DNA from: Candidatus Giovannonibacteria bacterium
GTDB lineage: Bacteria; Patescibacteriota; Minisyncoccia; JACPKW01; UBA11713
Length of the DNA stretch: 64,000 nt
NCBI GenBank assembly: GCA_016176285.1
Contig: JACOXM010000002.1
Location: 10,917 to 74,916, forward strand
Reading direction: 5' to 3'
The first letter of the stretch is position 1. Each line of letters opens with the position of its first letter. The position numbers and the translations under genes are program-made. A model generated the notes under the pieces. The model saw only the letters and a program-made list of their open reading frames with translations. It was not told the DNA's origin and did not search any database. Below, piece by piece: positions 11,028-17,468 of the stretch.

Positions 11028-11642
11028 ATGAAAAATAAATTTCTGACTTCTAATCCAAGGGTTGTTTCTTTTGTATCAAATTGGTTTCACCACATGATCA
11101 TGCGAAGGGTGAAGCACGGAAAATGGCTCGGCAAACCTATTGTAAAATTTCCGGAAGACTTGATGGTGTTGCAGGAAATTATATGGGAGACCAGACCAGA
11201 TACTATTATCGAATGCGGAACAAAATACGGCGGATCTGCTTTGTTAATGGCCTCTATTCTTGACCAAATCAGCAAGGGTAAAATAATAACTATTGATAAT
11301 AAAAACAGAGGAGAATTAAAGCATCCCCGGATTAACTATATTACGGGTAACAGCTTAGAGCAGGACATCAGGCCGGATGGCGAGACTATGGTTGTCTTGG
11401 ATTCTGACCACAGCTACACGCACGTTTTACATGAATTGGAAAAATACGCGCCAATGGTTACCAAAGGACAGTATCTGATTGTAGAGGACACTACTTATTC
11501 AAGCCAATATGAAGGGGGTGGGCCAGCTAAGGCCGTGAGCGAATTTCTAAAAAATCACAAAGAATTCGAAATTGATCGGAATCGCGAGAAATTTTTGATT
11601 ACCATGAACAGGGGTGGATATTTAAAAAGGCTTAATATATAA
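11028..11642 (+). CDS. CmcI-family class I SAM-dependent methyltransferase (cephalosporin hydroxylase / macrocin-O-MTase-like)
   Basis: WLGKPIVKFPEDL...RPDTIIECGTKYGGSALLMA...GKIITIDNK matches the CmcI family pattern. Confidence 0.6.
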   Translation: MKNKFLTSNPRVVSFVSNWFHHMIMRRVKHGKWLGKPIVKFPEDLMVLQEIIWETRPDTIIECGTKYGGSALLMASILDQISKGKIITIDNKNRGELKHPRINYITGNSLEQDIRPDGETMVVLDSDHSYTHVLHELEKYAPMVTKGQYLIVEDTTYSSQYEGGGPAKAVSEFLKNHKEFEIDRNREKFLITMNRGGYLKRLNI

Positions 11643-11857: not shown

Positions 11858-12532
11858 CTACCCGGTCCACTCTTTTAGGATAGCTTTTAAATGTTCGGAG
11901 CTGCCCGGGTTTTTTGTGATACCTTCTTCCAAAATAGATTTAGCCCTAACATCATCTTTCAATTTAAAGCGGTATAACTCGTATAGTTTTTGATATAGAA
12001 TGCCCGCTCCGTCATCCACTTTTATGCCCATCTTGTAATTCGCTTCGGCTTTTTTGTAGTCGTTCAGATTATATGTATATAGATCGCCTAAATTGTTGTA
12101 TGGCACGTAATAATTCGGTTTTAAATAACTTGCGTATTCCCAGGCCTCCTTGGCGCCCATAAAGTCCCCTATGAACTTTCTCTGGAGACCTAGATCCACC
12201 CAAAGATCATCTATGCTGGGATCTTGTCTTAATTTATTAGTAATCGTTTCGATTTTGGTAAGCGCCATTTTTTTGGAGTCCTCTGAAAGTTCTGCCCTAA
12301 TCTCAACGGGAAACGGAAGGGCAGGAACGGCTTTTTTAACTACGCTTGGAGTGGGACTTGGTTTATTTTGATTTGATGGCGTTGGTGTCGGGGTTGGCGT
12401 CGGGCCAACGGAAATATTTTCCCCGGGTTTATTAATTTTTCCTATATCTTTCCAGATATAATAAGCACCCCCTAATACGGCTATGGCAATTATAACCGCC
12501 CAAATATAAATGGTTTTATTGTCGCGAATCAT
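11858..12532 (-). CDS. Membrane-anchored TPR-repeat protein with Pro/Thr-rich linker
   Basis: N-terminal TM, a (TP)n linker TPTPTPTPSNQNKPSPTPS, and C-terminal TPR-like repeats (AWEYASYLKPNYYVPYNNLGDLY...). Confidence 0.55.
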   Translation of the reverse strand: MIRDNKTIYIWAVIIAIAVLGGAYYIWKDIGKINKPGENISVGPTPTPTPTPSNQNKPSPTPSVVKKAVPALPFPVEIRAELSEDSKKMALTKIETITNKLRQDPSIDDLWVDLGLQRKFIGDFMGAKEAWEYASYLKPNYYVPYNNLGDLYTYNLNDYKKAEANYKMGIKVDDGAGILYQKLYELYRFKLKDDVRAKSILEEGITKNPGSSEHLKAILKEWTG

Positions 12533-12557: not shown

Positions 12558-12594
12558 CTAAAAACAATCCAGCCCCGGCATATGCCGGGGCTGG
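12558..12594 (-). terminator. Rho-independent terminator downstream (minus strand) of the giant surface-protein gene
   Basis: Perfect 26-nt palindrome CCAGCCCCGGCATATGCCGGGGCTGG, followed on the minus strand by ATTGTTTTTAGG. Confidence 0.5.
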
Positions 12595-12632
12595 ATTTGA
12601 GTGACTTGCGTCACCTAGAAACTTCAATCCCT

Positions 12633-13280
12633 TTAGTTAGGAGATGTGAGAGTTTCTGAGGTCATGTTGTTGGTCGGTAGACCAGGCAACTGATAGCCGT
12701 TGGTGTAGTCGAAGTCTGCAACAGTGTTCTGGGTTGTCGTAGAAATCGGCGACCAGATGAAGTCGTTGTTGGTAATGTTGTCGATACCAGTTACCTGGGT
12801 TTCAATAACATTTCCAGACTGACCCATTTCACCACCATAAGTCAAGGCTGCACCTTTTCCTGTTATTGCTGACTGATGTCCTGCCGGGAAAGCGGCATCA
12901 CCCTCAAGTTGGACCGAGAACGATTCCTGACCGGAAACATTCTCTACTGAGCCGACAGTAGCGGCGAATCTGAAGTATCTTGTCTGTCCGGAAGGCACAA
13001 CGTAAGTCGTTGTAGCGTTAGCCGTGTTACAAGCGGTAGCATTTTTGTCCATGAAGATCTCTACAGGCGCGCTGGAATTCGGGTTAACGTCAGTTCCGAT
13101 TCTTTCGCCTACATTGTCCGTAACATTCGGCTTGACTCTCGCACATTGCGATGCGTTCAAGAGACCATCAGAGCTGAATGTTGTATCAGCCTGTGAGAAT
13201 CCTGAATCAGTAAACGCATATAGCGAGAAGAGCGATGTGGTCGCACCGGCTTGGCCAGCAGGAGCAGTTGAAGAGCTCAC
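12633..13280 (-). pseudogene. C-terminal continuation of the surface protein in a different frame (split or frameshifted gene)
   Basis: Same strand, 35 nt downstream of the 1038-aa ORF's stop, with the same T/S/G/N-rich composition. The frame is open from 13346 so a single indel would fuse the two. GTG start in the ORF track. Confidence 0.4.
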
Positions 13281-13315
13281 TAGGAAGCTAAGCTTGAATA
13301 GAGCGACATCGCCAC

Positions 13316-16300
13316 CTACATAACCGAGAACTTGTAGAGAGTCTTGTCAGCCGTTGTACCTGCGGTCAAGGTCTTTTCCGTGGATGATAACGTAATGTGT
13401 GCAAGTTCTGGATACGCTCTGAAGATTCTAACTCCGGAAGAACTTGTGTCTGTCGCGCTCGGGCTTATGTTTGAGCCTGAAGCAACGCCTACACCGTAGT
13501 TTCCGTTAATTCCAACGTTCTGTCCGTCGTAATCCACTTTCAGGAAATCACCGGACTTGTTGTTATCACAAGAGTTACAAATATTCGAGATATCTCCTTT
13601 TACAACCACTACTTTCGAACTGTCTTTAGTAATTCTGAATGTTCCGGAAGCAATTGCTGAAGATGTAGCAAAGTCTTCCTGGGCTGTCGTGAATTCGGCT
13701 GTTCCAAGTGATACGCCGTCGGTTGTCCATAGTGTAACGCGCCTGCCCACAAGGTCATTTGCCGTGTTTGAAGCAGTGCCAGTAAGTTGAAGGGCTACTT
13801 GCCTCAAATCAACATCTTCGTTAGCCGCAGAGAATCTAATTCTCGCGAGCTCAACGTTCGTGGCTCCTGCATTTACAACTTTGTATCCTGGGCTGTTTGC
13901 ATCCAATACAGCGGTTAATGTCCCGCCGGAAGATGCGGCCATGATCTGACCATTTGCCTCTGTCAAAGTTTCAACAATAGTCTGTCCGGAAGTTACACCA
14001 GTGGCGCCGGTAAATGCAGCCTGCTGACCGTTGTCCAGACCCCAGAGGTATGCACCAGTGGATCCGGAACGAACATTACATTTCAAGCTTAATGTCTTTG
14101 CTGTTCCTTTCGTTAAGGTCAAGCCAGTTCCATCAAACGTAAATGTAGTTGAAGAAGATTCAGCTGTCGGGTCAACTATATTCGAAGAATTGACTACAAC
14201 GGGCCCGTCGTAAAGTTTACAACCAGTTAAGTCATTGGCTGCTCCAGTTGTCGGGGCATGTGCAACACCATAAGCCAATGGGATAGTAGTAATTCTGACA
14301 TCCTCACCGGAAGCTGTTGCGTCAAATGTGTATCTGGCGAATTCGAATTGAGATGAGCCAGCAATAACGCTTTGCGCTATCGGTACGGACTGAACGCTAA
14401 CCGATAAGGCTCCTGATTTAACTGTCATTCTCGGTAAGTTTAGAGCCGAAGATGGGCTTGGAGTAATAGTATTTGATGTCGTCAAGCCTCTTACTGTCCC
14501 CCACCCTGATGGAGTGGTTGAAGCAGCAATTGTTGTACCGCCATCAATATCCGATCCTATTTTTGCTTTAAGTGTGTACGTGTGTGCTCCTGTCGGGAAT
14601 GTAATGGTGTCAGTGAATGGAATTGTTCCTTCATTTCCGCTGCTGTCAGTAGCTGAACCATCTACCGGTCCCGCAACCACTGTTCCTGTTTCATCCACCA
14701 GTATGGCATTCGTAATATCGTCAACATCGTCGTTTGCTCCCTCTCCAACCAATGAAACCTGGAAGGTTATGCTGGCAACTGAGATTGGTTCTCCCTTTAC
14801 GTCAACCGAAAGTGCTCCTAACGGCTGGCTCAAAAGATTAACTCCAATGTTTTGCGCGGCAACCGCAGTGGCGACTGAAACGTTCATAGTTCCAGTGTTT
14901 ACGGTTACTTGTGCCGCATCGTAGTAGTAGTCATCCGCATTGTTGAAGGCGGCTCCATCGGCAGAGGCGGCAGAACCAGCTAGAGGAGGAATAATTCCGA
15001 AGCCCCAGTTTGGTCCGCTAGCGCCCTTGCTAATTTCAGCCCCGTAAAGGCCGATATCAGTTCTCTTCGCGATGTCGAAGTCAACAGTTCTTGAAGAACC
15101 CCCGACGATATCACCTTTAATGGAAATATCTACGGAGAATCCTTTGTCAACTAGGATTCCGTTTCCTGGGAATGTTGATGTGTAATATTTACCGTCTGAA
15201 CTGACCACCGTGTCGTAAGCGGTTCCGTCAACGTAAGTTTTTACGTTGGCAAGGTCTGCAGTTCCGACAGAACCTGTCTGGTTCCAGCGAATACTTGATA
15301 GGTAAACTTTTTCAGCCGATCCGGCTGTGATTTTAACTGACGAGAAGGTATAGCCGGTAGTTCCAACATTCTTTGTCTGTGAAGCTCCCGGGTCCAATGA
15401 TCCTCTGGAAGTTGTTACAGATCCAATCGTTAGAGCGGCGTTTATTGTGTGCGCAGCTCCTGTTATCGGAAGTGATCCCGATACGGTTGCCGCCGTGTTT
15501 ATTCCAATTACGGAGAACGTCGCGACGTTTCCAGCGTCGTCAGCCAAGTTGGTCTTGGTGTCCATGTTGCCGCCAATCGTAAGCGTTCTTGTTTGACCAG
15601 CTTTTACGACAAACGGATCTCCAACTACCGCCTGGTGAGTGGAGTTCAAAGTCTTTGCGATTCCGATCTGCGTGCCATTTTCGTCTACAAGCGTTACTCC
15701 AATGAATGCGCCATCGGCAGCAGGTCCACCTCTTTCGACTGTGACCCCGTTTACGGTTATATCGCCATCATTAGAAGCAGTGAGTTTGAATACCGTGAAA
15801 GGTACTCTCGCCGCCGCTCCCGGGGCGATGTGATTAGCGGGCTGCGTTCCAGCGCTAATCATTAAGCCAGTGCCAACAATTGTTGGTGTTGGCGTAGCGC
15901 CGTCGGTCGGGATAGGTGTTGGTGTAGTTCCTCCTGATACAAGTGATACATATTTAGCTCTTGAAATTGGTCCGAAGTATCCAGCCGCAGGGGTAATTCC
16001 ATAATTTTGCTGCCATTTTCCAACGGCTGTTCTTGTCAATGGACCAAAGTAAGTTGTTTCATTTCCGGGGGAGCCAGCGCCGGAAGCAGCAACCGTGAAC
16101 CCCGAAGAGTTCAAATATTGCTGAAGGCATGTGACATCAGAACCGGTAGAACCAACTGTAAGACTTCTTGTGAAGTTGCAGTTTCCAGTCTGTGCTGGAG
16201 GCGTTGTGGTAGGCTGGCCACGCAATGACGCATTTACGTTATTGATAGTGGCTGCATCAGCTCCAAACGACTGAAGCAATTGAAGAATCGACTGGATTTG

Positions 16301-16432
16301 CGATTCCGATAAGGCGGCGTTTGCCACCAACGGAACAGTTAGTGAAGCTCCCGACAGAAATATTGCTGTCGAAAAGCTTAAGAAAGTCACGGCAATTTTA
16401 TTCGCCATGCCATTCTTTGTTCGAATACTCAT
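13316..16432 (-). CDS. Giant secreted cell-surface protein with N-terminal peptidoglycan-binding domain and long Thr/Gly/Ser/Ala-rich beta-rich region
   Basis: Signal peptide, then a PG_binding_1-like segment (GSTGSDVTCLQQYLN...YFGPLTRTAVGKWQ), then ~900 aa of low-complexity T/G/S/A/V-rich sequence. Visibly GC-richer than its neighbours. Confidence 0.65.
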   Translation of the reverse strand: MSIRTKNGMANKIAVTFLSFSTAIFLSGASLTVPLVANAALSESQIQSILQLLQSFGADAATINNVNASLRGQPTTTPPAQTGNCNFTRSLTVGSTGSDVTCLQQYLNSSGFTVAASGAGSPGNETTYFGPLTRTAVGKWQQNYGITPAAGYFGPISRAKYVSLVSGGTTPTPIPTDGATPTPTIVGTGLMISAGTQPANHIAPGAAARVPFTVFKLTASNDGDITVNGVTVERGGPAADGAFIGVTLVDENGTQIGIAKTLNSTHQAVVGDPFVVKAGQTRTLTIGGNMDTKTNLADDAGNVATFSVIGINTAATVSGSLPITGAAHTINAALTIGSVTTSRGSLDPGASQTKNVGTTGYTFSSVKITAGSAEKVYLSSIRWNQTGSVGTADLANVKTYVDGTAYDTVVSSDGKYYTSTFPGNGILVDKGFSVDISIKGDIVGGSSRTVDFDIAKRTDIGLYGAEISKGASGPNWGFGIIPPLAGSAASADGAAFNNADDYYYDAAQVTVNTGTMNVSVATAVAAQNIGVNLLSQPLGALSVDVKGEPISVASITFQVSLVGEGANDDVDDITNAILVDETGTVVAGPVDGSATDSSGNEGTIPFTDTITFPTGAHTYTLKAKIGSDIDGGTTIAASTTPSGWGTVRGLTTSNTITPSPSSALNLPRMTVKSGALSVSVQSVPIAQSVIAGSSQFEFARYTFDATASGEDVRITTIPLAYGVAHAPTTGAANDLTGCKLYDGPVVVNSSNIVDPTAESSSTTFTFDGTGLTLTKGTAKTLSLKCNVRSGSTGAYLWGLDNGQQAAFTGATGVTSGQTIVETLTEANGQIMAASSGGTLTAVLDANSPGYKVVNAGATNVELARIRFSAANEDVDLRQVALQLTGTASNTANDLVGRRVTLWTTDGVSLGTAEFTTAQEDFATSSAIASGTFRITKDSSKVVVVKGDISNICNSCDNNKSGDFLKVDYDGQNVGINGNYGVGVASGSNISPSATDTSSSGVRIFRAYPELAHITLSSTEKTLTAGTTADKTLYKFSVM

Positions 16433-17076
16433 GATGATTCTTTTTTATTAATTAATTAAGCATAGATTTCTCGGATTCGACTCCACCTCATCGGCGGACC
16501 AAAAACTCCATGCGTTAGTAAACAACTGATAAATTTATTCTAATCTTAGGAGCCAAGCCATATTCCTTTGCGATATCTCGAAAATTCGATATATCGAGCT
16601 GGATCGACCGGACTCGAGACTCCAGTTAATTACCAAGGGTTATATATTATTATCTGACACAATAAAACTTCTATTCGTGCAACAGTTGATATTCATATGT
16701 CAAAGTTCCATCTAAAAAAGCAAACCTCCCTAAACATCGGGGGATAAGCTCTGTTGTCTTTTTCATTATAGGTAAACATACCTAAAACACACAAGGGGCA
16801 AAGATAATTTCGTTTGTGGATAACAAACTTCTTACAATAAAACTATCTGGCAAATTCGTCAACGGATTGCCAATTTTTTTAATTTTATCTTTAATTATAA
16901 GAATTTTTAGACAATCAAATTGAAAAATTGTCATTAAATGGAAAAAATTTGCTAAAATTAGAAATTAATTGTGAAATTAATAAAGTTTTTTTTATTTAGA
17001 AAAAAATTGAAAAAATGGCTAATAAATGGTAAAAAAACGAGATAAACGCTAAAAAACGTTTATCATACAATAAAAT

Positions 17077-17150
17077 TGCCGGGTCGTCTAATGGTAGGAC
17101 GTCGCGCTCTGGACGCGAAAATCGGGGTTCGAGCCCCTGCCCGGCAGCCA
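17077..17150 (+). tRNA. tRNA-Gln (anticodon CTG), CCA encoded
   Basis: Hand fold. U1:A72 acceptor TGCCGGG/CCCGGCA. Anticodon stem TCGCG/CGCGA with loop CTCTGGA. T-arm CGGGG-TTCGAGC-CCCTG. Discriminator G, then CCA. Confidence 0.75.
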
Positions 17151-17252
17151 CATAAAGTGGATAATGTGACTTATCCTTGATATAATAATTAAGGATTGTA
17201 AAGGAGCCTTTTTAAAGGTCGTAACTAAGTTTCTAACTAACTTTAAATACAA

Positions 17253-17468
17253 ATGAAAGCACTGCACATGATCGCCTTCGTCTTGTTGGTGGTAGGCGGT
17301 TTAAACTGGTTGCTTGTGGCATTTAACTACAACCTTGTGGATATGATCTTCGGCAAAGGAAGCATAGTAGCGACTATCGTGTACGTTCTCGTCGGACTCT
17401 CCGCGATTTGGGAAGTGATAACGCATTCATCGAACTGCCGGGTCTGCGGAAAACAAGCAGCAATGTAG
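17253..17468 (+). CDS. DUF378-family small membrane protein
   Basis: MKALHMIAFVLLVVGGLNWLLVAFNYNLVDMIFG is the characteristic DUF378 pattern. Two TM segments. Confidence 0.6.
   Translation: MKALHMIAFVLLVVGGLNWLLVAFNYNLVDMIFGKGSIVATIVYVLVGLSAIWEVITHSSNCRVCGKQAAM

What the first reader, a model, noticed from the sequence alone, without database searches (positions are those of the whole stretch)
12633..16432. Giant GC-skewed surface protein with a peptidoglycan-binding domain, apparently split by a frame change near its C-terminus
A 1038-aa ORF has a signal peptide, a PG_binding_1-type domain and ~900 aa of T/G/S/A-rich repetitive beta-type sequence. It is markedly more GC-rich than surrounding genes. 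It ends in ...TLYKFSVM*.

The adjacent 215-aa ORF has identical composition, and its frame is open from 13346. A single indel in 13281-13346 would make one ~1260-aa protein. Two motifs look related across the break: TLYKFSV in one frame and ALFKLSFLV in the other.

Such giant wall-anchored proteins are candidate host-attachment factors in episymbiotic small-genome bacteria. The frame break could be a sequencing error, phase variation, or pseudogenisation.
Basis: partly seen in the sequence, partly recalled or inferred. Interest (0 to 1): 0.5.

Follow-up and report, generated by a model that had tools for sequence, protein, structure and literature searches.

The report
Frameshifted Parcubacteria wall-anchored surface protein gene
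The two reading frames are one roughly 1,266-residue cell-wall-anchored surface protein gene, conserved across the Parcubacteria, that is broken in this assembly by a 4-base deletion inside its last domain; it is a damaged or mis-assembled copy of an existing family, not a new kind of gene.

Summary
On the minus strand, a 1038-aa ORF (13316-16432) and a 215-aa ORF (12633-13280; frame open from 13346) are two pieces of one gene.

More than 1,400 homologs of 1,130-1,280 aa cover both pieces without a break. The closest (83% identical) is 1,266 aa. Compared with it, the window lacks 4 nt at about 13317-13322, in the hairpin ...LYKFSV-KA-VGGDVALFKLSF...

The downstream piece is still under purifying selection (dN/dS about 0.11). 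The lesion is therefore either recent or an assembly artefact. There is no repeat tract or slippery site, so phase variation and programmed frameshifting are unsupported.

The protein has a signal peptide, a helical linker and a PG_binding_1 domain. Five homologous beta-sandwich modules of about 160 aa follow, then a more variable C-terminal module that has been exchanged between lineages.

The higher GC lies at codon position 2, so it reflects amino-acid composition. GC skew is unremarkable.

76 of 80 species-level relatives carry one intact ORF. A membrane-anchored TPR gene usually lies just downstream.

The likeliest role is an S-layer-type major envelope protein. Host attachment is not excluded.

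GenBank annotates the two pieces as separate proteins. This is a new, broken member of a known but uncharacterised family; interest is modest.

The parts
13322..16432 (-). Piece 1 of the gene (ORF A up to Val1037). It encodes the signal peptide, helical linker, PG_binding_1 domain, modules M1-M5 and the first two strands of module M6. As assembled, this frame then reads Met and TAG at 13316-13321.
   Evidence: ORF list. tblastn of the reconstructed protein: residues 1-1037 map to 16432-13322 at 100%. Homologs cover it fully.
13316..13322 (-). The frame break. The window reads GTT-A|TGTA-GGT where the 83%-identical ortholog reads GTC-AAA-GCA-GTT-GGT (S-V-K-A-V-G-G). This is a 4-nt gap, net -1 base. 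The premature TAG is at 13316-13318.
   Evidence: DNA alignment of the window against L001. All homologs read ..LY(K/R)FSV(K/T)A(V/N)GGDVALYK.. as one stretch. No repeat or homopolymer here.
12633..13319 (-). Piece 2 of the gene (ORF B frame, from VGGDVALFKLSF... to the stop codon). It holds the remaining roughly 80% of C-terminal module M6, including the family's conserved C-terminal motif DFIWSPISTTT...DYTNGYQLPGLP.
   Evidence: Frame translation. 80% aa identity and dN/dS 0.114 against the intact ortholog. In other proteins, matches to it end at or within about 3 residues of the C-terminus, apart from a few weak short-motif hits. GenBank lists it separately as hypothetical protein HYT00_00510.
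16316..16432 (-). Predicted Sec signal peptide (residues 1-39, cleavage after VANA).
   Evidence: Read from the sequence: a basic start, a hydrophobic core, then A-N-A. The AF2 model of the homolog has a low-confidence N-terminal helix here. No signal-peptide predictor was available.
15941..16183 (-). PG_binding_1 domain, which binds peptidoglycan non-covalently. The Pfam core is 15989-16147.
13433..15874 (-). Five homologous beta-sandwich modules of about 160 aa each: M1 15425-15874, M2 14897-15424, M3 14423-14896, M4 13931-14422, M5 13433-13930.
12636..13432 (-). C-terminal module M6 (residues 1001-1266). It is a beta-sandwich, the least conserved module, and has been exchanged between lineages. 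The break lies inside it.
   Evidence: AF2 model of the module: pLDDT 87.1, pTM 0.88. The break falls in the hairpin between strands E20-35 and E39-50. Mean pairwise identity is 0.47 against 0.55-0.64 for M1-M5. Body and M6 identities disagree between lineages.
12566..12597 (-). Intrinsic terminator: a perfect 16+16-nt palindrome (the scan counts a 14-bp stem with 10 G-C pairs) followed by a T-run. It lies 36 nt after the ORF B stop. No terminator-like site on this strand lies between ORF A and ORF B.
   Evidence: Terminator scan. Inverted repeat I1, 100% complementary.
16433..17076 (-). Long AT-rich (about 30% GC) upstream region, probably a leader and promoter. It is conserved in the closest relative.
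   Evidence: GC 0.30. The upstream 868 nt (16433-17300, which also takes in the tRNA-Gln gene) aligns with the region upstream of the L001 ortholog at 70.6% identity, although synonymous sites in the gene are near saturation. Rfam found nothing here except the neighbouring tRNA.
11858..12532 (-). Downstream gene for a 224-aa protein with an N-terminal membrane helix and TPR repeats. It is a conserved neighbour and possible partner.
   Evidence: Sub-threshold TPR matches: TPR_17 at 24.2 bits against a cutoff of 24.4; TPR_8 and TPR_1 weaker. A homolog lies downstream of the surface-protein gene, on the same strand and mostly within a few hundred bases, in 58 of the 83 loci held.

Best explanation
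Window 12633-16432 (minus strand) is one gene for a secreted, cell-wall-anchored surface protein of about 1,266 aa. The mature protein is about 125 kDa with pI 4.6. The source is a Candidatus Giovannonibacteria (Parcubacteria/Paceibacteria) metagenome-assembled genome.

Shown:
- It belongs to a large, well-conserved family of 1,130-1,280-aa proteins.
- The architecture is a PG_binding_1 domain, five homologous beta-sandwich modules of about 160 aa, and a divergent C-terminal beta-sandwich module.
- In this assembly the frame is broken by a 4-nt gap (net -1) inside the first hairpin of the C-terminal module.
- The downstream part still carries the signature of purifying selection.

Inferred:
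- The protein is exported by Sec and tethered to the cell's own peptidoglycan through the N-terminal domain. The modules then extend outward as beads on a string.
- Its most likely role is the S-layer-type major envelope protein of these cells (my estimate about 0.55). Host or particle attachment through the variable distal module is the main alternative (about 0.25).
- The break is either a very recent inactivating mutation carried by the assembled population or a local assembly or consensus error. I rate these about equally likely.
- If the break is real, the product is truncated at residue 1038 and lacks a folded C-terminal module. ORF B has no signal peptide and no convincing start site, so it could not reach the cell surface on its own.
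For: One gene:
- Homologs of 1,180-1,277 aa cover up to 100% of the reconstructed protein. P0001 is 83% identical and exactly 1,266 aa. Its locus is syntenic with the window.
- The only gap near the junction in the DNA alignment is 4 nt, at 13317-13322.
- The junction peptide LYKFSV-xA-VGGDVALYK is continuous in the full-length homologs inspected.
- It forms a beta-hairpin inside a confidently modelled domain (pTM 0.88).
- Matches to ORF B end at or within about 3 residues of the C-terminus of the hit proteins, apart from a few weak short-motif hits.
- One strong terminator follows ORF B, and no terminator-like site on this strand lies between the two ORFs.

Recent or artefactual break:
- ORF B against the ortholog gives 80% aa identity and dN/dS 0.114. 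The upstream part gives 0.063, with dS about 1.3-1.5.
- 76 of 80 species-level relatives have one intact ORF.

Architecture:

S-layer-type role:
- It has an N-terminal wall-binding domain followed by a string of beta-sandwich domains.
- It has an acidic pI and little Cys.
- The body is strongly conserved.
- Cryo-EM of a Parcubacterium shows an apparent S-layer.
- A published lattice-prediction survey lists Patescibacteria S-layer candidates of 1,131-1,274 aa.
- Proteins carrying a peptidoglycan-binding domain are among the most highly expressed genes of unknown function in three Paceibacteria.
Against: - No read data were available, so a real mutation and an assembly error cannot be told apart.
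- A 4-nt deletion outside any repeat is unusual for a simple sequencing error. That leans slightly towards a real variant or a local mis-assembly.
- The S-layer role is inferred only. Fold searches return generic Ig-, cohesin- and adhesin-like hits (PrgB, antigen I/II, pilins) alongside an archaeal S-layer. They do not separate an adhesin from an S-layer protein.
- I could not show that any accession in the published S-layer candidate list belongs to this family.
- The one highly expressed protein I could check in the metatranscriptome study is 2,079 nt, too short to belong to this family.
- The variable, swappable distal module would also suit an adhesin.
Confidence: 0.85

Rival explanations
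1. The break is a local assembly or consensus artefact. Co-existing strains share the conserved body of the gene but differ in the C-terminal module, and this confuses the assembler at that junction. On this view the organism's gene is intact.
For: - The C-terminal module has been exchanged between lineages. P0005 compared with the window is 0.73 identical in the body but 0.36 in M6. P0005 compared with a Harrisonbacteria protein is 0.59 and 0.54.
- Other assemblies fail at the same place. In one Giovannonibacteria MAG the gene is cut across two contigs near the M5/M6 boundary (L061 and L083). A partial protein, P0102, ends in the same region.
- GW2011_GWC1_45_13 has an out-of-frame deletion of about 70 nt exactly at the boundary.
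- ORF B shows no decay.
- ORFs flanking the gene match the lengths of their counterparts on the related contig L001, so the assembly shows no other obvious breaks nearby.
Against: - The gap lies 27 aa inside the module, not at the exchange boundary.
- Body and M6 identities to the closest ortholog are similar (0.86 and 0.81). The window sequence is therefore not an obvious chimera.
- No independent near-identical read-through fragment was found.
- Two or three breaks within about 50 aa of each other is not statistically compelling. By my rough estimate, chance would give this about 20% of the time.
Confidence: 0.45
2. The break is a real, recent loss-of-function or truncating mutation in the sequenced population. 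The cells make a 1,038-aa protein that lacks the distal C-terminal module. This could be drift in a small population, or selection to shed an exposed module, for example to escape a phage or to change partner.
For: - A 4-nt deletion in non-repetitive sequence is not a typical base-calling error.
- About 2.5% of species-level relatives also carry disruptions. One has an in-frame TAG (L026) and one a frameshift (L048). Inactivation therefore does occur in this family.
- M6 is the least conserved module and is exchanged between lineages, as expected for an exposed part.
Against: - ORF B shows purifying selection over nearly all of its divergence (dN/dS 0.114). Any inactivation must be very recent.
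- 95% of relatives keep the gene intact, which argues that the full-length protein matters.
- There is no population data.
Confidence: 0.5
3. The protein is a host-attachment adhesin of an episymbiotic bacterium, and not a structural S-layer protein.
For: - Structural neighbours include Gram-positive adhesin and pilin Ig-like domains and cohesins: PrgB, antigen I/II, RrgB, SpaP.
- The distal module is variable and swappable.
- The authors of a Paceibacteria metatranscriptome study proposed host attachment for highly expressed proteins carrying a peptidoglycan-binding domain.
Against: - The body is unusually conserved for a host-specific adhesin. Identity is 46-64% across many candidate phyla, and dN/dS is 0.04-0.06.
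- No second copy lies in this 64-kb window.
- The overall plan matches wall-anchored S-layer proteins.
Confidence: 0.25
4. The frame change is programmed, either as ribosomal frameshifting or as phase variation, so that both a short and a long form of the protein are made.
For: Two independent genomes have frame disruptions within about 45 aa of each other near the start of M6.
Against: - There is no slippery heptamer, homopolymer or short tandem repeat at the site.
- The required -1 shift has no tRNA re-pairing option on G-GTT-ATG-TAG.
- The two lesions differ in kind: a 4-nt gap here and a deletion of about 70 nt in the other genome.
- The closest ortholog and 76 of 80 relatives are in frame.
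Confidence: 0.03

Closest known systems
Uncharacterised Parcubacteria/Paceibacteria 'peptidoglycan-binding protein' family. NCBI names members 'peptidoglycan-binding protein'. UniRef names them 'Peptidoglycan binding-like domain-containing protein', for example A0A1F6ECN0, A0A1F5VF05 and A0A1F8GRA6.
   Same: - Same length class, with full-length colinear alignment at 46-83% identity.
- Same N-terminal PG_binding_1 domain, the same six-module body and the same C-terminal motif.
- Same downstream TM-TPR gene.
- ORF A itself is deposited as a 'peptidoglycan-binding protein' (P0002). ORF B is deposited as hypothetical protein HYT00_00510.
   Different: This copy is split by a 4-nt gap into pieces of 1,038 and 215 aa. 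76 of 80 species-level relatives are intact. No Pfam or NCBIfam model covers the roughly 1,050 aa beyond the peptidoglycan-binding domain.
Predicted Patescibacteria S-layer proteins in the SymProFold survey (bioRxiv 10.1101/2024.05.28.596244). Examples are Kaiserbacteria A0A0G1WWP5 (1,173 aa), Parcubacteria GMX59286.1 (1,185 aa) and Doudnabacteria A0A1F5NRV7 (1,264 aa).
   Same: Same phylum and same length class (1,131-1,274 aa). All are multi-domain Ig-like proteins picked as having a signal peptide and no assigned function. The survey's table lists a p6-type symmetry code (6+2,3 or 6+3) for each.
   Different: Membership was not shown. None of the accessions I could retrieve for this family matches that list, and the AlphaFold-database fold library was unavailable. 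No lattice prediction was run here.
Gram-positive S-layer proteins with an N-terminal cell-wall-binding region followed by beads-on-a-string beta-sandwich domains. [quoted passage not shown]
   Same: - The overall logic is the same: a signal peptide, a non-covalent wall anchor, then a chain of Ig-like domains.
- It has an acidic pI, little Cys and a size of about 125 kDa.
- It has a strong terminator and a long leader.
   Different: The anchor is a PG_binding_1 domain. From general knowledge, the usual anchors in those proteins are SLH or CWB2-type domains or a binding region for secondary cell-wall polymers. There is no detectable sequence homology in the body. Self-assembly is untested.
Ig-like-domain adhesins of Gram-positive bacteria: PrgB (8beg), antigen I/II (3qe5, 3opu) and pilins such as RrgB.
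   Different: Sequence identity is only 5-11%, and TM-scores are no higher than about 0.25. There is no LPXTG sorting signal or C-terminal membrane anchor, because the protein ends ...ETLTSPN. No ligand-binding head domain could be identified.

Membership tests
Parcubacteria ~1,200-aa PG_binding_1 surface-protein family (uncurated) | Full-length colinear homology to family members | tested here: met
   The reconstructed 1,266-aa protein is covered up to 100% by homologs of 1,180-1,277 aa at 46-83% identity, with E = 0 for more than 100 of the 120 listed hits. An alignment of 112 members shows 46 invariant columns.
Parcubacteria ~1,200-aa PG_binding_1 surface-protein family (uncurated) | N-terminal PG_binding_1 domain after a signal peptide | tested here: met
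Parcubacteria ~1,200-aa PG_binding_1 surface-protein family (uncurated) | Conserved C-terminal module ending in DFIW(S/T)PxSTTT...(F/Y)TNGY..GLP | tested here: met
   The motif is present in ORF B. W, P, S, T, D, N and G of the motif are invariant in the alignments. It lies at the C-terminus of the listed hits, apart from a few weak short-motif matches.
Parcubacteria ~1,200-aa PG_binding_1 surface-protein family (uncurated) | One uninterrupted reading frame | tested here: not met
   A 4-nt gap at 13317-13322 splits the frame. 76 of 80 relatives are intact. As assembled, this copy is therefore a disrupted member.
Bacterial S-layer proteins | Self-assembly into a two-dimensional paracrystalline lattice on the cell surface | not testable with these tools
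   No multimer or lattice prediction tool and no imaging were available. The only support is indirect: cryo-EM of a Parcubacterium and a survey of predicted Patescibacteria S-layer proteins.
Bacterial S-layer proteins | Very high abundance or expression | not tested
   There are no expression data for this genome. A study of other Paceibacteria reports proteins with a peptidoglycan-binding domain among the most highly expressed genes of unknown function. The one I could check is a shorter protein of 2,079 nt.
Bacterial S-layer proteins | Secretion signal plus a cell-wall anchoring domain and a multi-domain body; acidic pI and low Cys content | tested here: met
   A signal peptide (inferred), PG_binding_1, six beta-sandwich modules, pI 4.58 and Cys 0.7%. 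These features are typical of S-layer proteins but not exclusive to them.
LPXTG/sortase-anchored Gram-positive adhesins | C-terminal LPXTG motif followed by a hydrophobic segment and a basic tail | tested here: not met
   The reconstructed C-terminus is ...GLPTNNMTSETLTSPN, with no LPXTG motif and no hydrophobic tail.
Phase-variable or programmed-frameshift genes | A simple-sequence repeat or slippery site at the frame change, conserved in relatives | tested here: not met
   The break sequence is CTCGGTTATGTAGGTGG, with no repeat or homopolymer. The closest ortholog is in frame.

The most novel reading that the evidence does not exclude
This family may be the long-sought S-layer or major envelope protein of the Parcubacteria, with a cassette-like distal module. 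On this reading, out-of-frame lesions at the start of that module are real population-level variants that shed or switch the exposed module under phage or host pressure. The lesions seen are the one in this window, the one in GW2011_GWC1_45_13, and the contig breaks at the same place in other MAGs.
Probability: 0.08. Interest if true: 0.6.

Novelty: new member of a known kind. Interest (0 to 1): 0.3.

Why it matters
For this locus, the practical result is an annotation fix. Two GenBank proteins, a 1,030-aa 'peptidoglycan-binding protein' and hypothetical protein HYT00_00510, are fragments of one gene. They should be merged or flagged as a frameshifted gene.

The family itself is more interesting than the break.
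- It is a conserved protein of about 125 kDa. A pattern scan found it in at least 302 species-level genomes, almost all labelled as Parcubacteria or other Patescibacteria.
- No curated domain model covers it beyond the peptidoglycan anchor.
- It has a conserved membrane-TPR gene as neighbour.
- Its distal module is exchanged between lineages.

If it is the S-layer protein of these ultra-small, mostly uncultured bacteria, it would be a handle for imaging, enrichment and the study of cell-cell contact.

Tried and rejected
- Programmed frameshifting and phase variation: rejected. There is no slippery site or repeat, and the relatives are in frame.
- Foreign origin of the GC-rich gene: rejected. 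GC3 equals that of the neighbours, and the excess is at codon position 2.
- ORF B as an independent gene family: rejected. Matches to it end at or within about 3 residues of the C-terminus of larger proteins or fragments, apart from a few weak short-motif hits. The apparent stand-alone 228-aa protein P0246 sits at a contig end.
- Recurrent breakage as a biological signal: considered and left open. Only 2 of 80 species-level loci are truly disrupted, one by an in-frame TAG at about residue 708. The clustering near M6 is not significant.
- Linking the family to named S-layer candidates: failed. The accessions I retrieved do not match the published list, the afdb50 library was unavailable, and the supplementary tables of the metatranscriptome paper were truncated.
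- Search for an independent, near-identical read-through fragment of the junction: none found. That search scored only 395 candidates and did not even return P0001, so it is weak negative evidence.
- Paralogs in the window and DNA repeats in the gene: none.
- Rfam on the long upstream region: only the tRNA.

Full report

Yes. The minus strand carries a 1038-aa ORF (13316..16432) ending ...TLYKFSVM*. It is followed by a 215-aa ORF (12633..13280, GTG start) whose frame stays open back to 13346.

Pfam finds PG_binding_1 at residues 96-148, scoring 36.6 bits against a cutoff of 23. It finds nothing else. Thr, Gly, Ala and Ser together make up about 45% of the protein.

GC is 0.48-0.49 in the gene against 0.42 for the whole window. 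GC skew is flat, between -0.08 and +0.11, so 'GC-skewed' is a mislabel. The extra GC sits at codon position 2 (0.50-0.53 against 0.32-0.39 in nine neighbouring genes). GC3 (0.41-0.48) matches the neighbours at 0.39-0.50. The raised GC therefore follows from an amino-acid composition rich in Thr, Gly, Ala and Ser. It is not a sign of foreign DNA.

**2. One gene or two?**

One gene. I joined the two frames at KFSV|VGGD to give a 1,266-aa protein.

- This protein finds 1,415 relatives at E ≤ 0.001. The full-length ones are 1,180-1,277 aa, and many cover 100% of the query.
- The best hit, P0001, is 83% identical and exactly 1,266 aa. It lies on a 47-kb contig (L001) that is syntenic with the window.
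- A DNA alignment of the two genes is 76% identical. The only gap near the junction is 4 nt. The window reads GTT-A|TGTA-GGT where L001 reads GTC-AAA-GCA-GTT-GGT.
- The full-length homologs I inspected read ...LY(K/R)FSV(K/T)A(V/N)GGDVALYKxxF... without interruption.

They are the two consecutive strands of one hairpin. In a confident model of the C-terminal module (pLDDT 87.1, pTM 0.88), the break falls between strands E20-35 and E39-50.

I searched ORF B alone against 1.84 billion representative proteins. In the listed hits the match ends at or within about 3 residues of the protein's C-terminus, apart from a few weak short-motif matches. The one apparently free-standing 228-aa relative (P0246) sits 124 nt from a contig end.

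The database also identifies the source as a 90.7-kb contig of a Candidatus Giovannonibacteria MAG. GenBank lists ORF A as a 'peptidoglycan-binding protein' of 1,030 aa (P0002). It lists ORF B as 'hypothetical protein HYT00_00510' (P0401).

**3. What kind of lesion is it?**

The site (CTCGGTTATGTAGGTGG) has no homopolymer, short tandem repeat or slippery heptamer. The closest ortholog is in frame. Phase variation and programmed frameshifting are therefore rejected.

Against L001, ORF B keeps 80% amino-acid identity with dN/dS of 0.114. The upstream part gives 85% and 0.063, at a dS of about 1.3-1.5. The downstream piece has thus been under purifying selection for essentially all of its divergence. 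The lesion is either very recent or not real.

ORFs flanking the gene match the lengths of their counterparts on L001. This is an informal comparison, but it suggests the assembly is not error-prone in general.

I scanned one genome per species and kept 80 loci.

- 76 loci carry one intact ORF.
- L026 has an in-frame TAG.
- L048 has a frameshift.
- L058 has a scaffold gap of Ns.
- L073 is intact and has an extra fragment downstream.

L048 is GW2011_GWC1_45_13, also fetched as L002. There the gene is split into pieces of 993 and 225 aa by an out-of-frame deletion of about 70 nt, roughly 45 aa upstream of the window's break. In another Giovannonibacteria MAG the gene is cut across two contigs in the same region (L061 and L083).

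This clustering is suggestive but not statistically compelling. By my rough estimate, chance would give it about 20% of the time.

**4. Why might assemblies fail there?**

The C-terminal module (M6) has been exchanged between lineages.

| Comparison | Body identity | M6 identity |
|---|---|---|
| P0004 and P0005 vs window protein | 73-74% | 36% |
| P0005 vs Harrisonbacteria protein P0116 | 59% | 54% |
| P0003 vs window protein | 67% | 69% |
| P0010 vs window protein | 59% | 66% |

In those sequences, identity drops right after ...GVRI(F/M)(R/K)AYP, which is 27 aa before the window's break.

Co-existing strains with the same body but different M6 modules would create branch points for an assembler. 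This gives the artefact explanation a concrete mechanism. It does not prove it, and only reads can decide.

**5. What is the protein?**

An AlphaFold2 model of a 57%-identical, 1,197-aa homolog was built with a 112-sequence alignment. It is confident (mean pLDDT 87.2) and shows these parts:

- a signal-peptide helix;
- a short helical linker;
- beta-sandwich domains all the way to the C-terminus.

A recurring strand-turn-strand motif marks six modules of about 160 aa each. Profile-profile comparison shows that M1-M5 are homologous and in register: M2-M4 97.4%, M4-M5 97.5%, M1-M5 95.8%, M3-M4 95.3%. M6 is only weakly related (M5-M6 22%, E about 1e-3).

No Pfam or NCBIfam model covers the roughly 1,050 aa beyond the anchor.

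The mature protein is about 125 kDa with pI 4.58 and 0.7% Cys.

The gene is followed 36 nt later by a perfect 16+16-nt palindromic terminator. It is preceded by an AT-rich region of about 640 nt. The upstream 868 nt, which also takes in the tRNA-Gln gene, is 70.6% identical to the L001 counterpart, even though synonymous sites in the gene are near saturation.

A 224-aa protein with one membrane helix and sub-threshold TPR matches is encoded downstream on the same strand, mostly within a few hundred bases, in 58 of the 83 loci held.

**6. How does it most likely work?**

Shown: the architecture, the conservation of the family and the gene neighbourhood.

Inferred: Sec exports the protein, and the N-terminal domain holds it non-covalently on the cell's own peptidoglycan. 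The modules then project outward, with the variable M6 farthest from the wall.

I favour an S-layer-type major envelope protein (about 0.55), for four reasons:

- The plan mirrors wall-anchored S-layer proteins built as beads on a string. SbsC is an example (PMC13635256 abstract).
- The body is far more conserved than a host-specific adhesin would normally be.
- Cryo-EM of a Parcubacterium shows an apparent S-layer (bioRxiv 10.1101/2022.04.20.488981).
- A lattice-prediction survey lists Patescibacteria S-layer candidates of 1,131-1,274 aa (bioRxiv 10.1101/2024.05.28.596244).

I could not show that those candidates belong to this family.

A host-attachment role (about 0.25) remains possible through M6. 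A metatranscriptome study proposed this role for highly expressed Paceibacteria proteins that carry a peptidoglycan-binding domain (PMC10936435). The one such protein I could check is much shorter, at 2,079 nt.

If the frameshift is real, the cell makes a 1,038-aa protein with an unfolded stub in place of M6. ORF B has no signal peptide. Its only candidate start is a GTG with no visible ribosome-binding site. It would therefore not reach the surface.

**7. Verdict**

The finding is correct and well explained. It is a disrupted or mis-assembled copy of a conserved, uncharacterised Parcubacteria surface-protein gene. The instance itself is ordinary.

The family deserves attention for three reasons: its likely S-layer role, its exchangeable distal module and its conserved TPR neighbour. 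Interest is 0.3. I classify it as a new member of a known kind.

Noticed in passing
window 11858-12532 (-); also L001 13882-14562, L002 9690-10364, L083 882-1676: A protein of about 224 aa, with one N-terminal membrane helix, a Pro/Thr-rich linker and sub-threshold TPR matches, is encoded downstream of the surface-protein gene. It lies on the same strand, mostly within a few hundred bases, in 58 of the 83 loci held. It may be a dedicated assembly or anchoring partner.
   Followed up: partly
window 16433-17076 (-), upstream of the gene: An AT-rich (about 30% GC) non-coding region of about 640 nt lies upstream of the gene. The upstream 868 nt, including the tRNA-Gln gene, is 70.6% identical to the region upstream of the 83%-identical ortholog, although synonymous sites in the gene are near saturation. 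This looks like a conserved long leader or promoter. Rfam has no match for it.
   Followed up: partly
L002 8780-9620 (= L048; GCA_001001285.1, LCKG01000003.1): In Parcubacteria GW2011_GWC1_45_13 the same gene is split into pieces of 993 and 225 aa. An out-of-frame deletion of about 70 nt removes ...ISGPAGINGSAAASSQGVRIMKAYP, exactly at the boundary of the exchangeable C-terminal module.
   Followed up: yes
L026 5104-5106: A TAG stop replaces the residue before the invariant Cys in ...ATDL(T)NCKLYDG of an otherwise colinear ortholog. This is either a nonsense mutation or an error. Recoding was not examined.
   Followed up: partly
family-wide: P0004/P0005/P0006 and P0116/P0118/P0120 compared with the window protein, P0001, P0003 and P0010: The C-terminal module comes in at least two types. 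Their distribution conflicts with the relationships of the rest of the protein: body 0.73 with M6 0.36 in one comparison, and body 0.59 with M6 0.54 in another. This points to module exchange just after the ...GVRI(F/M)(R/K)AYP motif.
   Followed up: partly
proteins, e.g. P0265 (637 aa), P0280 (624), P0298 (724), P0311 (718): Many proteins of about 600-730 aa carry the same C-terminal module. They may form a shorter sister family that shares the distal module. That size range overlaps the 643-727-aa Patescibacteria S-layer candidates listed in the SymProFold survey. Some of them may simply be metagenome fragments.
   Followed up: no
window 11028-11642 (+): A gene of the rhamnosyl O-methyltransferase/CmcI family (PF04989, E 2e-49) lies between ssb and rpsR (ribosomal protein S18) in the S6-SSB-S18 cluster. 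No such gene was called at the matching position of the related contig L001.
   Followed up: partly
window 17077-17150 (+) and 17253-17468 (+): A tRNA-Gln (CTG anticodon) gene and a small DUF378 membrane-protein gene lie divergently upstream of the surface-protein gene.
   Followed up: no
L073 6721-7470: Directly downstream of an intact ortholog there is a second, partial paralog. It gives weak tblastn matches to the N-terminal linker and to module M4.
   Followed up: no
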